Shown here piece after piece: positions 27,104-30,543 of a stretch of 64,000 bases of DNA (the stretch's first letter is position 1; each line of letters opens with the position of its first letter). The DNA comes from Fibrobacteria bacterium (GTDB taxonomy: Bacteria > Fibrobacterota > Fibrobacteria > UBA11236 > JADFYW01), in contig JBNKOC010000027.1 of NCBI GenBank assembly GCA_050294405.1, positions 67,639 to 131,638 on the forward strand, given 5' to 3'. The notes under the pieces were generated by a model. That model ran no database searches, was not told the origin of the DNA, and was given only the letters and a program-made list of their open reading frames with translations. The translations under genes and the position numbers were made by a program.

Positions 27104-27625
27104 ATGAATTTTAACTGGACCAAAAGCATATACGGATCCAAGGAGAGTCCTGAAAAGGGATTCACTATTATGGAGCTTGTAATGGTATTGGCTATCATCA
27201 CCATTTTGACCACACTAGCCGCTCCCAAATTTAAATCCTGGAAGGAAATAATTGATTTACACAATACCACCAGGCAAATAAAAGGGCAATTGGACTTTGC
27301 CAAGGTAAGGGCATTGACCAACCCACTGGTCCATTGTGGAGTTTATTTTAAAACAAGTTCACCCTCTTACTCCGCCATCTTTTTTGACACTGCAATGGTT
27401 GGGTCATACGATTATAACATGGGCCAGGACCCCTTATATCAGGCAGCTTTGGAAATCCCCCCCGGTCTTAACGTTTCATTATCCATCCCAGGCGGCAAAG
27501 ACGAGGTTATTTTCCGAGGAGACGGCTCCTCTAACACAAATGCAAACATAATAATTTCCAATGGATTTATGTCTGATACCATTAACATTCTTGCAAGCAC
27601 TGGCAGAATTAAAATATTAAAATGA
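27104..27625 (+). CDS. Type IV minor pilin / pseudopilin, FimT-GspH-like
   Basis: The prepilin cleavage/methylation motif KG/FTIMELV has Glu at +5, followed by a hydrophobic helix. Confidence 0.78.
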   Translation: MNFNWTKSIYGSKESPEKGFTIMELVMVLAIITILTTLAAPKFKSWKEIIDLHNTTRQIKGQLDFAKVRALTNPLVHCGVYFKTSSPSYSAIFFDTAMVGSYDYNMGQDPLYQAALEIPPGLNVSLSIPGGKDEVIFRGDGSSNTNANIIISNGFMSDTINILASTGRIKILK

Positions 27626-28026
27626 AAATCAAAAATCAGCGCCATCAATCCGGTTTTGCTCTAATGGAAATTTTAGTCGCTATGGCCATTCTTGGGGTCG
27701 GTTTCAGTTTTATTTTAATGTCAGATAAAATTTCCTGGAATACCACGAAAAGTTCAATAAAGATGCTGAAAGCCGGGCACTTAATTGAAAAGAATATTGA
27801 GCAGCTTAGAATACATATAAGCTCAAATCCAGCAGCTAACTTTCCTCCTACAGACACCAGCTTCACTGAAGATGGAATTACATTTCAACGAAAAATAACA
27901 ACGGCTTACTCTCCAAAAACGGGAACCGCCCTATCTAACATCCGAAAATTGGAAATAACTACCGCTTGGGGTAGTAGCGTAAACGATTCTTTAAATATTC
28001 AAACTTACATATCCAGAGATTTTTAG
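27622..28026 (+). CDS. Type IV minor pilin / pseudopilin, PilV-GspI-like
   Basis: SG/FALMEILVAMAILGVG has Glu at +5. There is an ATGA overlap with the upstream gene. Confidence 0.72.
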   Translation: MKIKNQRHQSGFALMEILVAMAILGVGFSFILMSDKISWNTTKSSIKMLKAGHLIEKNIEQLRIHISSNPAANFPPTDTSFTEDGITFQRKITTAYSPKTGTALSNIRKLEITTAWGSSVNDSLNIQTYISRDF

Positions 28027-28027
28027 C

Positions 28028-28825
28028 ATGTTTCACTTTAGCAACAGCAGTTCCGGGTTTTCCATTTTAGAACTCATGGTAGCCATGATGATTTCAGGAA
28101 TATTTTTGTTAGCACTGGGAAAAATGTTAAATGATACTCAAGTAAGCTACCAAGCTCAAAGTGAAATATTAGAGGTAAATCAAAATGCTCAGTACACCAT
28201 AAACAAGTTATCCGATGCCCTGATGGAAGCGGGAGCAACCCTCCCCTCTGGGGGATGGAATATCATAGAAACAGCTTCCAACCCTTCTGACAGTTTTAAA
28301 GTCCATATTAATCCTGAAGGAGGATATCAGGTTATCCAACAAAGTTCCATTACCACAAACAAAATCCCTGTAGACAATGGAGCAGGATTTAGCAAGGCGT
28401 TAAAAATCAAATACATTCCTTATAACCCGGTAATGTTCAAGGCAGATTTAAATATTGAAACCAGCTACAATTCAAATGGGTATGTAGATGGGATAAAAAC
28501 AGTATCTGGATCCTATGATTCTGTAAAAGTTACTACCACTAAAACTTTTTATAAAGGTGACACTATATACTCTTACTCCTCACATAACTACTACAAAAAC
28601 GGAACAAACTTGTATTACAATAATGAAATTTTTGCAGAAAATATTGATACTCTGGCCATAACCTTTTTAGATGCGAGCCATAGCATCACTTCCAATTGGG
28701 ATAACATGGCATTTATTGACATTAAAGTAACAGCCAGGTCTTTAAGTAATAATACTCTAAGTGTTGGAGATGGTTACCGACGCTCAACCTTATCGAAAAA
28801 GTTTCGCTTAAAAAATAAAATTTGA
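28028..28825 (+). CDS. Type IV minor pilin / pseudopilin, PilW-GspJ-like
   Basis: SG/FSILELMVAMMISGIF has Glu at +5. Length is 265 aa. Confidence 0.68.
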   Translation: MFHFSNSSSGFSILELMVAMMISGIFLLALGKMLNDTQVSYQAQSEILEVNQNAQYTINKLSDALMEAGATLPSGGWNIIETASNPSDSFKVHINPEGGYQVIQQSSITTNKIPVDNGAGFSKALKIKYIPYNPVMFKADLNIETSYNSNGYVDGIKTVSGSYDSVKVTTTKTFYKGDTIYSYSSHNYYKNGTNLYYNNEIFAENIDTLAITFLDASHSITSNWDNMAFIDIKVTARSLSNNTLSVGDGYRRSTLSKKFRLKNKI

Positions 28826-28833
28826 GGCATTGC

Positions 28834-30543
28834 ATGGCGACTAATCATTTAAAAAAAGAAGGCGGATTTGCGATTATTGCCACTCTGTTAATTTTATTGG
28901 GCGTCACTATTATGGCCATTGGCGCTCTATATAACGGCCAAATCAGCAATATGATTGCCAACAATTATAAAAAGAAAATTCAGTCCTTTTATTCCTCCGA
29001 TGGTATGATGACATTGCTCACACAGGAAATTATTGATGGCCGCGGAAACAGTTATGCGCCGCTTGTAAATTACAACAATGGCATTACCATGGAAGTTTGG
29101 AATGGGATTTCCGGAAATAGTATTTCAAGTCTTATCAATAATCCCGACTACCCAAATTATCCATCCACTACTACCACCTTAACATCTTATTTTGAAGCGC
29201 CCTCAAATTACGGCAATAATTTTGGAGCTAGAATACATGGTTATATCCATCCTCCAGATAATGGATTTTATAATTTTTGGATAGCAGCCGATGACAATTG
29301 CCAGCTCTATTTAAGCACAGATGACAATCCCGAAAATATTAAAAAAATTGGGGGACACACGTCATACACAAATTCCAGAGAATGGACAAAACACCCTAAT
29401 CAATTATCCGCCCCCATTTATTTGAAAGGAGGGGAGCGCTATTATATTTGCGCTTTATACAAAGAAGGCAATGGAGGTGATAACTTAGCTGTAGGTTGGG
29501 GCTGGTATAGAGACGATTTTTCATGGAATATGGAAAGACCTATCCCAGGAAGCCGGCTATCACCCTTCGGGTCTATACTGTCGCAAGGAAGTGACACTAT
29601 TCAATTTGCTGGGTTTAATTTAAAGTATGAAATAACCGAAACCAGAAAAGATATGTTTACAATTGGCACAGAATCCTTTTTAAACAATTTTGGATCGAAA
29701 AAAACTTTTGCCACTCCTTTATTACAATCCATTGACAGAGGCTATGAAGGAATTAATATCGACAATTCACAATCTAGCGTTAAACTTCCAGTAACATTTT
29801 ACGACCACAAATCCCGGGCAACCAGCGATCCCTGTGATAACAACCCCTTTAACCCCTGTCCCATATCGGGTCTTATGACAGGACTGGTCCAGGATACACT
29901 TGGCCAAAATGGCCTTCCTTTGTTTAAACCTCACCCTTTGTTAAATAATGGCTGCACAAACTGCGGGTTTTATAACGATAAGGTTGGCAAATGGTTTACG
30001 GCCAATCCCCCTGCATGGGTGCCCGGAAGTGAACTCTTTGATATTATCTATAAAGATTCGCTTACATTTACAAAACTGCCTAATGGGAGTTACCGCTACC
30101 AAAACAACAACTTTTTTCCTTTGGATAACTTCCCTAACACTCTAGTTAAACAGGGGTTGGAAAGCAACATATATGGTAGTGATTTCAATTGGCATAACTT
30201 TGGGTTTGCCATGCACATGACCAGGCGTTTTACCTACAACGCTGCAACCGCCCCATACCAAAATTTTTACTTTACCGGCGATGATGATGTTTGGGTGTTT
30301 ATTGATGGAAAATTAGTAATGGATTTGGGAGGCATTCATACTGCAGTAAGCGGAAGCTTTAATCTAAAAATTGTTGCCGATGCCATCGGACTTATTGATG
30401 GCCAAACATATAACTACGACTTTTTCTACGCCGAAAGACATTGCTGTTCCTCGACCATCCAAATTACCACTAACATTAATTTGTTTGATCCTCCAACTCC
30501 TCCCAAACGAAGCTGGCAAAGGGATTATGGCTATTTAGATTGA
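28834..30543 (+). CDS. PilX/GspK-like minor pilin anchor fused to PA14 and fibro-slime domains
   Basis: The ATG at 28834 follows GAGG; the track start at 28822 is TTG. The [15 protein letters not shown] anchor has no Glu at +5. PA14-like sequence is [30 protein letters not shown]...[11 protein letters not shown]. Fibro-slime-like sequence is PVTFYDHK...FFPLDNF...HNFGFAMHM...[23 protein letters not shown]. Confidence 0.72.
   Translation: [569 protein letters not shown]

What the first reader, a model, noticed from the sequence alone, without database searches (positions are those of the whole stretch)
27104..30543. Four-gene minor-pilin operon whose tip-position subunit is fused to PA14 and fibro-slime adhesin modules
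Three consecutive ORFs carry classical prepilin motifs with Glu+5 (G/FTIMEL, G/FALMEI, G/FSILEL). The fourth has the Glu-less PilX/GspK-type anchor ([15 protein letters not shown]).
The order and sizes mimic FimT-PilV-PilW-PilX and GspH-I-J-K, the complex that caps the fibre. The genes are translationally coupled (ATGA at 27622, a 1-nt gap at 28027, and TGA/ATG proximity at 28823-28836).
Instead of a separate PilY1, the fourth protein continues into a PA14-like module (about nt 29074-29556) and a fibro-slime module (about nt 29785-30477, with FFPLDNF...[21 protein letters not shown]). Both are carbohydrate- or surface-binding folds.
Fibro-slime proteins and type IV pilins have each been implicated in cellulose adhesion in Fibrobacter. 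A covalent fusion would place the adhesin at the pilus tip. No major pilin, ATPase or secretin lies in the window.
Basis: partly seen in the sequence, partly recalled or inferred. Interest (0 to 1): 0.62.

Follow-up and report, generated by a model that had tools for sequence, protein, structure and literature searches.

The report
Pilus-tip pilin carrying sugar-binding modules
An uncultured Fibrobacterota bacterium has a conserved four-gene operon of pilus "primer" subunits whose last, cap-type subunit carries two lectin-like domains, most likely a sugar-gripping pilus tip; the design principle is already published, but this combination of parts, with an exchangeable carbohydrate-binding slot, is not described in the papers I searched.

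Summary
Four tightly packed genes (27104-30543, + strand) encode three prepilins with Gly-1/Glu+5 and one large Glu-less protein. That protein has PA14 (E 3e-15) and fibro-slime (E 2e-29) domains.

- The fourth protein belongs to a small Fibrobacterota family whose N-terminus matches Pfam PilX_N. One member passes the curated cut-off, and 8 of 21 match at E up to 9e-7. The window protein alone does not.
- It is modelled with a 55-residue pilin-type helix.
- It nearly always follows the same three prepilin genes, in more than 20 loci and with tandem duplications.

New here: the family has a constant scaffold of helix, small beta unit and invariant C-terminal W-K/Q-R-D-Y-G tail. It also has a constant fibro-slime module and a variable slot. 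The slot holds PA14, CBM4_9, CBM6/35, a ConA-like domain or about 1,250 aa of modules.

The genome has a dispersed type IVa pilus machine, no PilY1 match and no other free minor-pilin set.

Best reading: a PilX/GspK-class tip pilin that doubles as a carbohydrate adhesin. This is a new variant of the published modular-pilin and PilX-with-insert designs. The H/I/J subtype of genes 1-3 and any binding specificity remain untested.

The parts
26921..27103 (+). 183-nt upstream intergenic region, presumed promoter and leader of the operon
   Evidence: It lies between the stop of the 1710-aa kinase gene and the start of gene 1. The consensus promoter scan was not above the shuffled background, so no promoter is assigned.
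27104..27625 (+). Gene 1 (P1, 173 aa): prepilin-type minor pilin in the GspH/FimU position. Leader ...SPEKG / FTIMEL, Glu+5.
   Evidence: N_methyl 22.9 bits (cut-off 21.2) and TIGR02532 23.1 bits (cut-off 16.3). Twelve syntenic orthologs share the C-terminal FRGDGS...LASTGR motif. The profile hits only alpha1 of type IV pilins in the PDB. GspH family is not significant.
27622..28026 (+). Gene 2 (P2, 134 aa): prepilin-type minor pilin in the GspI/PilV position. Leader ...RHQSG / FALMEI. The ATGA overlap with gene 1 suggests translational coupling.
   Evidence: N_methyl 28.7 bits. Glu+5 is invariant in 12 orthologs. The 4-nt overlap with gene 1 also occurs in relatives L096, L098, L099, L100 and L101.
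28028..28825 (+). Gene 3 (P3, 265 aa): large prepilin-type minor pilin in the GspJ/PilW position. Leader ...NSSSG / FSILEL.
   Evidence: N_methyl 26.3 bits. Glu+5 is invariant in 13 orthologs. The AlphaFold model has pLDDT 86.4, with helix 13-67 plus an all-beta two-sheet body. There is no significant PDB fold match. The best sequence family is PpdB-like NF007848, far below its cut-off.
28834..30543 (+). Gene 4 (P4, 569 aa from ATG 28834, or 573 aa from TTG 28822; residue numbers below use the 573-aa frame): Glu-less PilX/GspK-class tip pilin carrying PA14 and fibro-slime modules.
   Evidence: It is single copy in the genome.
28864..29034 (+). P4 residues 15-71: Gly-1/Phe+1 junction, hydrophobic alpha1-N without Glu+5, and alpha1-C with the conserved NYK..[8 protein letters not shown] motif.
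   Evidence: G15 is at least 90% conserved in A1 and invariant in the 21-sequence scaffold alignment. N48, D60, G61 and E69 are invariant. Helix 17-71 appears in the model. PilX_N is found in relatives.
29083..29571 (+). P4 residues about 88-250: PA14 domain occupying the variable cargo slot.
   Evidence: PF07691 E 3.4e-15. The beta-sandwich is modelled at 88-228. In relatives the same slot holds CBM_4_9, CBM_6/35, DUF1349-like (below its Pfam cut-off) or about 1,250 aa of modules.
29584..29751 (+). [quoted passage not shown]
   Evidence: Strands 258-262, 265-275, 278-286 and 300-305 appear in the model. The unit is conserved in all slot variants. It is absent from classical fibro-slime proteins, whose matches start at model position about 297.
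29776..30504 (+). P4 residues about 319-561: complete fibro-slime module (PA14-like), starting at [10 protein letters not shown] and containing [21 protein letters not shown].
   Evidence: TIGR02148 E 2.3e-29 at 458-554. Paralogs and classical fibro-slime proteins align to 319-561. G486-W491 are invariant.
30505..30540 (+). P4 residues 562-573: conserved C-terminal tail [10 protein letters not shown], a candidate cis terminal beta-strand of the pilin scaffold.
   Evidence: W565 and R567 are invariant. The tail is kept in most slot variants, including the 1683-aa P0236; only the Trp persists in the most divergent. Fibro-slime-only homologs stop at about 555-566. The model predicts a strand at 562-565 but with low confidence.

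Best explanation
The four genes are a co-inherited 'core minor pilin' cassette of a type IV filament. P1-P3 are prepilin-peptidase substrates with Glu+5. P4 is the Glu-less, PilX/PilK/GspK-class subunit that sits at the very tip.

P4 is a split pilin scaffold made of three parts:
- a long N-terminal helix;
- a small beta unit;
- the extreme C-terminal tail, which probably returns as the last beta-strand.

Two cargo modules are inserted into this scaffold. A lineage-variable carbohydrate-binding domain (PA14 here) lies between helix and beta unit. A constant fibro-slime (PA14-like) module lies before the tail.

After cleavage by the single PilD, the P1-P4 complex would prime assembly of the pilus made of the C28 major pilin. 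The machine is the dispersed PilB/PilC/PilMNO/PilQ apparatus, with PilT for retraction. The complex stays at the tip, where the two lectin-like modules bind a polysaccharide surface. P4 would thus do the jobs of both PilX and the missing PilY1.

Shown: gene structure, motifs, domains, family conservation, synteny, slot variability, presence of the machinery, absence of a PilY1 match.

Inferred: tip location, processing, which machine is used, carbohydrate binding and its specificity, the cis-strand role of the tail.
For: - Prepilin motifs are over curated cut-offs in P1-P3, and Glu+5 is conserved in orthologs.
- In the P4 family, Gly-1 is invariant in the 21 scaffold sequences, Phe+1 is usual and there is no Glu+5. 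The model shows a 55-residue helix. PilX_N scores 26.7 bits against a cut-off of 25.5 in P0240 and matches 8 of 21 scaffold-only sequences, best E 9.3e-7.
- PA14 and fibro-slime are confirmed. The best fold match is the tandem-PA14 polysaccharide sensor of RsgI anti-sigma factors (6qe7, E 7.5e-10), followed by the PA14 lectins Epa, Flo and MpIBP.
- The slot holds CBM_4_9 (E 9e-15), CBM_6/35 or ConA-like DUF1349 (sub-threshold) in relatives. All of these are carbohydrate-binding-type folds.
- The four-gene cassette is conserved and duplicated as a unit. P3-type and P4-type genes are adjacent in almost every genome of a 201-genome phylum sample that has them.
- The genome has one PilC platform, PilB, two PilT-like ATPases, PilMNO-PilQ, PilD and a classical PilA. 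It has no PilY1 match. It has no other free minor-pilin set.
- Published precedent: the terminal beta-strand of PilK-family tip pilins is given in cis (GspK, CpaL) or in trans by PilY1 (PMC13533445). Cyanobacterial PilX carries a bulky domain inserted before its last strand and is proposed to replace PilY1 (PMC13759059).
Against: - The window protein itself does not reach PilX_N at any reported E-value. It gives only 11.2 bits against the GspK model, whose cut-off is 130.
- The P4 model is of moderate quality (pLDDT 66.7), and the tail is below 50. I could not inspect contacts, so packing of the beta unit and tail on the helix is unverified.
- Subtype families for P1-P3 are all sub-threshold. 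The confident P3 model has no significant PDB neighbour.
- No expression, localisation or binding data exist.
- The genome also has three other ATPase-containing clusters (C11, C19, C12) that could in principle use the cassette.
- The PilY1 negative lacks a true positive control among the 14 control genomes.
Confidence: 0.66

Rival explanations
1. The cassette is a GspH-I-J-K pseudopilin set of a type II secretion-like system. It could serve one of the compact ATPase-secretin clusters on contigs C11 or C19, or the C12 cluster. P4 would cap a short periplasmic pseudopilus and use its lectin-like modules to recognise or push glycosylated or polysaccharide-bound cargo, and would not act as an external adhesin.
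For: The gene order and sizes equal H-I-J-K. There are weak NCBIfam hits to GspH, GspI, GspJ and GspK. The genome has four GspE-type ATPases and four secretins. T2SS genes of F. succinogenes are induced on cellulose (PMC4668043).
Against: All Gsp subtype hits are far below their cut-offs. The family matches PilX_N, not the GspK models. C11 and C19 each carry their own Glu+5 pilins and their own Glu-less protein of about 485 aa. The only PF00482 platform gene lies next to a PilT-like gene. A classical PilA and PilMNO-PilQ have no other minor pilins available. A slot that swaps CBMs makes most sense for a surface-exposed tip.
Confidence: 0.17
2. P4 is a membrane-anchored or Sec-exported fibro-slime/PA14 surface lectin with an uncleaved signal anchor. 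It happens to lie downstream of three pilin genes and is not itself a filament subunit.
For: The window protein alone gives no significant pilin-family hit. Classical fibro-slime proteins are Sec-exported and independent of pilins.
Against: The Gly-1 junction and the NYK..FYASDG motif are conserved, and the helix is 55 residues long. PilX_N hits occur in relatives. Adjacency to the three prepilin genes is near-strict in more than 20 loci and several families, including whole-cassette duplications. The genes are tightly spaced. The beta unit and tail occur only together with this N-terminus.
Confidence: 0.05
3. The cassette primes a type IV filament whose main job is not adhesion to plant polysaccharide. 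Examples are binding of the cell's own exopolysaccharide for motility (as proposed for cyanobacterial PilX-EPS), cell-cell aggregation, or capture of soluble glycans for uptake.
For: PA14 and fibro-slime folds bind diverse sugars. Cyanobacterial PilX-EPS is proposed to recognise self-laid EPS (PMC13759059). The window has no cellulase next to the operon. Relatives have polysaccharide-synthesis and pectate-lyase genes nearby.
Against: Nothing here discriminates between ligands. CBM4_9 and CBM6/35 in the slot of relatives are typical of plant or algal glycan recognition.
Confidence: 0.12

Closest known systems
PilX / PilK / GspK-class tip minor (pseudo)pilins (P. aeruginosa PilX, N. gonorrhoeae PilK, E. 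coli GspK in the GspIJK complex)
   Same: P4 is the last gene of a four-gene minor-pilin operon. It has a prepilin-like Gly junction but no Glu+5. Relatives match PilX_N at the N-terminus. The inferred role is capping and priming.
   Different: P4 is three times larger or more and carries two lectin-like modules. The window protein is below threshold for both the PilX_N and GspK models. No PilY1 partner is present.
Cyanobacterial PilX with inserted beta-solenoid (PMC13759059) and Thermus ComZ
   Same: A PilX-type pilin fold is interrupted by a bulky domain placed before the C-terminal strand, in organisms without PilY1.
   Different: The inserted domain here is fibro-slime/PA14-like and not a beta-solenoid. 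There is also a second, exchangeable insertion in the alpha-beta loop region.
CpaL/TadG of Tad pili and the cis/trans terminal beta-strand rule (Ellison et al. 2026, PMC13533445)
   Same: A protein of about 600 aa has an N-terminal pilin-like domain, a large middle region and an extreme C-terminus that completes the pilin sheet. P4 has a conserved tail that co-occurs only with the scaffold.
   Different: The strand addition is not shown for P4. This is a different filament class (T4a-like, not Tad) with different middle domains.
Modular pilins PilB (vWA) and PilC (lectin) of Streptococcus sanguinis (PMC8179133, PMC9934059); pilin+PA14 is listed among the 15 commonest modular architectures
   Same: A functional binding module is grafted on a pilin for display by the filament, and the carbohydrate-binding modules include PA14.
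   Different: Those were defined by the IPR012902 Glu+5 motif and a C-terminal graft. P4 is Glu-less and PilX-type, with modules inserted inside the pilin fold, and would not be retrieved by that search.
Classical fibro-slime proteins of Fibrobacter succinogenes (TIGR02148; cellulose-binding, PMC4668043, PMC3079729)
   Same: They share the fibro-slime module of about 240 aa, starting VTFYDFHS..NPEFE and containing GDDDVW.
   Different: Classical proteins have a Sec signal peptide directly followed by the module. They range from a few hundred to over 2,000 aa in the loci examined and have no pilin genes upstream. They lack the helix, beta unit and WKRDYG tail.
Tandem PA14 sensor domain of clostridial RsgI anti-sigma factors (PDB 6qe7, 6qdi)
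   Same: It is the best structural match to the P4 model (E 7.5e-10), with two PA14-type domains in one chain.
   Different: It is a signalling receptor on a TM anchor and not a filament subunit. Sequence identity is about 12%.

Membership tests
Type IV pilin / prepilin (PF07963 N_methyl, TIGR02532) | Short basic leader ending in Gly, then a hydrophobic residue at +1, Glu at +5 and about 20 hydrophobic residues; profile score over the cut-off | tested here: met
   P1 scores 22.9, P2 28.7 and P3 26.3 bits against a cut-off of 21.2. TIGR02532 is over its cut-off in all three. Glu+5 is invariant in P2 and P3 orthologs. P4 does not match and has no Glu+5.
PilX_N (PF14341) | Profile match of the N-terminal 50 residues over the gathering score (25.5 bits), in the window protein itself | tested here: not met
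   No PilX_N hit for the window protein at E up to 10.
PilX_N (PF14341) | Profile match in homologous family members that align over the same N-terminus | tested here: met
   P0240 scores 26.7 bits (over the cut-off) and P0262 18.2 bits. Three of 17 full-length members and 8 of 21 scaffold-only sequences match, best E 9.3e-7.
GspK (NF037980; T2SS minor pseudopilin K) | Equivalog profile score of at least 130 bits; alpha-domain inserted in the pilin sheet | tested here: not met
   11.2 bits, E 0.19, N-terminal 58 residues only. No GspK chain appears among the top fold matches.
Core minor-pilin set (FimU-PilV-PilW-PilX or GspH-I-J-K) | Four syntenic genes: three Glu+5 pilins of increasing size class, then a Glu-less subunit | tested here: met
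   Sizes are 173/134/265/569 aa, tightly packed. The same layout occurs in L001, L016, L017, L043, L095, L096 (twice), L098-L101 and in the phylum survey.
Core minor-pilin set (FimU-PilV-PilW-PilX or GspH-I-J-K) | Subtype identity of genes 1-3 by family profile or fold (GspH/FimU, GspI/PilV, GspJ/PilW) | tested here: inconclusive
   GspH reaches E 0.25 in 1 of 12 orthologs. GspJ is found in 4 of 13 and PpdB-like in 11 of 13, all far below their cut-offs and limited to the N-terminal region. The P3 model is confident but has no significant PDB neighbour. PDB profile hits cover alpha1 only.
PA14 (PF07691) | Profile score over 24 bits; beta-sandwich fold | tested here: met
   56.6 bits, E 3.4e-15, residues 127-227. 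PA14 lectin structures are among the fold matches.
Fibro-slime domain (TIGR02148) | Profile score over 45 bits, including the GDDDVW motif | tested here: met
   101.7 bits, E 2.3e-29, residues 458-554, covering the full model length.
Modular pilin as searched for by Raynaud et al. 2021 | N-terminal IPR012902 (N-methyl, Glu+5) motif plus an extra non-pilus domain | tested here: not met
   P4 lacks the N_methyl match and Glu+5. It fits the concept, a pilin carrying a functional module, but not the search definition.
PilK-family tip pilin with cis terminal beta-strand (Ellison et al. 2026) | The extreme C-terminal ~10 residues complete the small beta-sheet of the pilin domain and dock on the J-type subunit | not testable with these tools
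   Indirect evidence only. The tail is conserved (W565 and R567 invariant) and co-occurs strictly with the helix and beta unit, not with the fibro-slime module. The strand at 562-565 is predicted at low confidence. No multimer modelling or contact read-out was available.
PilY1/PilC tip adhesin (PF05567) | C-terminal beta-propeller domain encoded in the genome, usually after pilX | tested here: not met
   No match at E up to 0.1 in the 98%-complete genome. None of the 14 control genomes scores over the family's cut-off (2 weak hits), so the negative is not validated.

The most novel reading that the evidence does not exclude
Fibrobacterota use a 'cassette tip'. One polypeptide merges the PilX-type cap and the PilY1-type adhesin. 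It has a constant split-pilin scaffold whose invariant W-K/Q-R-D-Y-G end acts as the cis strand that licenses tip-complex assembly. It also has a constant fibro-slime module and a hot-swappable slot that sets glycan specificity: PA14, CBM4_9, CBM6/35, ConA-like, or more than 1,200 aa of modules. Tandem cassettes would let one pilus machine build pili with different sugar-specific tips. Together with PilT these would work as retractile grappling hooks on polysaccharide fibres. This would physically link the two adhesion factors, fibro-slime and pili, that have so far been treated separately in this phylum.
Probability: 0.4. Interest if true: 0.62.

Novelty: new variant of a known kind. Interest (0 to 1): 0.5.

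Why it matters
Models of how Fibrobacterota attach to plant fibre involve two separate factors, fibro-slime proteins and type IV pili, with no physical link between them. This family puts a fibro-slime module on a pilus-tip subunit. 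It therefore gives a concrete, testable link in the environmental relatives of Fibrobacter, though not in F. succinogenes itself as far as tested.

It also adds a clear natural example to two recent ideas. One is that PilX-class caps can absorb the PilY1 adhesin role. The other is that tip complexes depend on a terminal beta-strand. The exchangeable CBM slot on a constant scaffold is a natural domain-swap series that could be used to study or engineer pilus-tip specificity.

The general design (modular pilins, PilX with an inserted domain) is already published. Similar lectin-bearing tips have been noted elsewhere in this scan, so the surprise for a specialist is moderate.

Tried and rejected
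- **P3 fold search.** Foldseek of the confident P3 model against the PDB gave only antibody-Fab noise (best E 0.037). It neither supports nor refutes GspJ/PilW.
- **PDB profile searches.** Profiles of P1, P2 and P3 hit only the alpha1 helix of major pilins. The scaffold-only P4 profile hit nothing meaningful.
- **Subtype scans.** Pfam and NCBIfam scans of all orthologs gave nothing over the cut-offs.
- **Homolog search with P3.** The word-based search found a single relative, so orthologs had to be collected by synteny.
- **Motif scan.** A relaxed motif scan for Glu-less pilin-like proteins flagged a 591-aa ORF at C12:397717. It is a PAS/histidine kinase and was rejected.
- **Promoter and terminator scan.** Not above shuffled background.
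- **Model contacts.** The AlphaFold P4 model could not be inspected for contacts, so the split-scaffold packing rests on comparative architecture.
- **Plain signal-anchor reading.** Considered and rejected because of the conserved Gly-1 junction, the 55-residue helix and the near-strict synteny.

Full report
**1. Observation**

The four ORFs exist as described: 27104-27625 (173 aa), 27622-28026 (134 aa), 28028-28825 (265 aa) and 28822-30543. Genes 1 and 2 overlap by ATGA, and genes 2 and 3 are 1 nt apart. The stop of gene 3 (TGA 28823-28825) is followed by an in-frame ATG at 28834 with GAGG six nt upstream. Gene 4 therefore most likely starts there, giving 569 aa, identical to the database gene call P0001. 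A convergent gene overlaps the 3' end, so the operon ends with gene 4. GC content is 0.37-0.38, between an AT-rich upstream kinase gene and the richer flanks.

**2. Domain and motif checks**

P1-P3 each pass the curated cut-offs of Pfam N_methyl and TIGR02532, with leaders ending in Gly and Glu at +5.

P4 has PA14 (56.6 bits, cut-off 24, residues 127-227) and the fibro-slime domain (101.7 bits, cut-off 45, residues 458-554). Its N-terminus [13 protein letters not shown] has no Glu+5. By itself it gives only a non-significant GspK hit (E 0.19) and no PilX_N hit.

**3. The P4 family**

A database search found about 18 full-length relatives (565-600 aa, 29-34% identity, about 98% coverage), one of them named as Fibrobacterota. 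Their alignment shows several conserved features:
- a nearly invariant Gly before the hydrophobic segment;
- the motif NYK..QSFYASDG..LLAQE..DG...Y;
- both lectin-like domains;
- an invariant end, W-K/Q-R-D-Y-G-x-L-D.

An exhaustive profile search of 1.84 billion representatives found only about 10-15 clusters with the full architecture.

AlphaFold with this alignment gives a model of moderate quality (pLDDT 66.7). It has a 55-residue helix (17-71), a PA14 sandwich (88-228), a four-strand unit (258-305) and a second PA14-like domain up to about 560. Foldseek places it nearest to the tandem-PA14 polysaccharide sensors of RsgI anti-sigma factors (6qe7, E 7.5e-10) and to the PA14 lectins Epa, Flo and MpIBP.

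**4. Pilin nature of the N-terminus**

PilX_N is detected in 3 of 17 full-length members. It is detected in P0240 above the gathering score, 26.7 against 25.5 bits. It is also detected in 8 of 21 sequences once the cargo is removed, best E 9.3e-7.

The conserved Gly-1 junction (Phe at +1 in most members), the lack of Glu+5 and the helix length are what is expected of the PilX/PilK/GspK class. In that class the missing Glu+5 marks the first, tip-most subunit (stated in PMC13759059). The window protein alone stays sub-threshold, so membership is by family transitivity.

**5. A constant scaffold with a variable slot**

Several relatives match only profile positions about 244-575 but still have the same N-terminal helix. 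Between helix and beta unit they carry other domains:
- CBM_4_9 (P0240, E 9e-15; P0231);
- CBM_6/CBM_35 (P0260, P0262);
- a DUF1349/ConA-like domain (P0178, P0228, P0064; below the Pfam cut-off but consistent across the three);
- about 1,250 aa of further modules (P0236, 1683 aa).

The helix, the beta unit, the fibro-slime module and, in most members, the WKRDYG tail are kept; the most divergent tails keep only the Trp.

Classical fibro-slime proteins and the window genome's own fibro-slime paralogs align only to about 297/319-561. They have a Sec signal peptide directly before the VTFYDFHS motif and no pilin genes upstream.

So the beta unit and the tail belong with the pilin helix and not with the fibro-slime module. 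P4 is best described as a split pilin scaffold with two insertions.

This is the topology published in 2026 for cyanobacterial PilX, where a bulky domain sits between the penultimate and last strand and is proposed to replace PilY1 (PMC13759059). It is also the topology of CpaL and GspK, whose extreme C-terminus supplies in cis the strand that PilY1 supplies in trans (PMC13533445). That the P4 tail plays this role is an inference. I could not read contacts from the model, and the tail has low confidence.

**6. The cassette**

The three upstream genes are conserved with P4 in every context examined:
- L001/L002;
- L016, L017 and L043;
- L095;
- L096, with two complete cassettes in tandem;
- L098, L099, L100 and L101, the last again with two cassettes;
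- L112.

Ortholog alignments of P1, P2 and P3 are coherent.

In a sample of 201 Fibrobacterota genomes, complete full-length PA14-type P4 occurs in the window genome and in 11 genomes of a sister family of the same order, with a contig-truncated copy in a twelfth, at 1-3 copies each. Full-length P3-type genes occur in about 40 genomes of at least six families. Wherever both are found they are adjacent.

Named genomes with the scaffold are all Fibrobacterota MAGs. A Fibrobacter succinogenes MAG and two other Fibrobacter-labelled MAGs lack it, while three larger 'Fibrobacter sp.' MAGs have it.

**7. Subtype of P1-P3**

PDB profile searches hit only the alpha1 of type IV pilins. GspH, GspI, GspJ, PilV and PpdB-like hits are all far below their cut-offs.

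The P3 model is confident (pLDDT 86.4; helix 13-67 plus a two-sheet beta body) but has no significant PDB neighbour.

The H-I-J / FimU-V-W assignment therefore rests on order and size.

**8. Machinery**

The 4.7-Mb genome (98% complete) encodes:
- four GspE/PilB-type and two PilT-like ATPases;
- four secretins;
- one prepilin peptidase;
- a single PilC/GspF platform next to a PilT-like gene;
- PilM-PilN-PilO, a 505-aa protein and PilQ on C23;
- PilB on C26;
- a classical 159-aa major pilin on C28.

Two compact clusters (C11, C19) carry their own pilins and their own Glu-less proteins of about 485 aa.

A motif scan finds Glu+5 prepilins only in those clusters, in PilA and in this cassette. The cassette is thus the only minor-pilin set available to the dispersed T4aP machine. 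No PilY1 family match exists (this negative has no good positive control).

Assigning the cassette to the T4aP machine is an inference.

**9. Comparison and novelty**

Modular pilins are known to be widespread, and pilin+PA14 is among the commonest architectures (PMC8179133). PilX with inserted modules and cis terminal strands was described in 2026. Fibro-slime proteins and pili have been linked to cellulose adhesion in F. succinogenes only as separate factors (PMC4668043).

I found no paper joining fibro-slime to a pilin.

Earlier notes of this scan report the same family in another Fibrobacterota genome, and lectin-bearing GspK/PilX tips in Omnitrophota, CPR and Planctomycetes. These are unchecked AI notes. 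I reached the same reading independently and tested it here.

**Verdict**

It is a new variant of a known kind and of moderate interest.

Noticed in passing
own genome G000:C11:24051-34803 and G000:C19:60092-68597 (outside the window; loci L003, L004, L011, L012): Two paralogous compact clusters. Each holds a GspE-type ATPase, a secretin, a PilM-like gene, two small TM proteins, a Glu-less pilin-like protein of about 485 aa and two Glu+5 pilins, but no PF00482 platform gene. The C11 Glu-less protein gives a sub-threshold bactofilin-type hit (25.0 bits, cut-off 27.9), hinting at a beta-helix that would recall ComZ and the cyanobacterial PilX beta-solenoid.
   Followed up: partly
own genome: Four GspE/PilB-type ATPases and four secretins, but only one PilC/GspF-family platform protein detectable (C1:70462-71661). 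The extra systems either share it or use a platform too divergent for PF00482.
   Followed up: no
L096:3019-10221 and L101:2982-9515: Relatives carry two complete four-gene cassettes in tandem. L001 has one P1-P3 set followed by two P4 paralogs (596 and 582 aa). This suggests diversification of tips by duplication.
   Followed up: partly
protein P0236 (1683 aa, metagenome): A giant family member with the same helix, beta unit, fibro-slime module and WKRDYGLLD end, but about 1,250 aa of CBM6-like and LamG-like modules in the slot.
   Followed up: partly
L096:3019-3591, L101:2982-3551, L002:6390-6920: Some P1 orthologs have Gln instead of Glu at +5 (GFTVVQL, GFTFIQL), which is unusual for a prepilin that is not the tip subunit.
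   Followed up: no
L001, L096, L101 (upstream of the cassette): A Tex-family gene (about 780-795 aa) directly precedes the cassette in three relatives. In the window the upstream neighbour is instead the 1710-aa Ser/Thr-kinase/histidine-kinase gene (21788-26920).
   Followed up: no
window 30531-31451 (- strand): A convergent 306-aa ORF with a signal-peptide-like start overlaps the last 13 nt of gene 4. It was not characterised.
   Followed up: no
phylum survey, family f3 genus g11: In many genomes of another family of the class, the P3 profile hits only the N-terminal ~70 residues of ORFs of 450-540 aa. These are large pilin-like proteins of unknown type.
   Followed up: no
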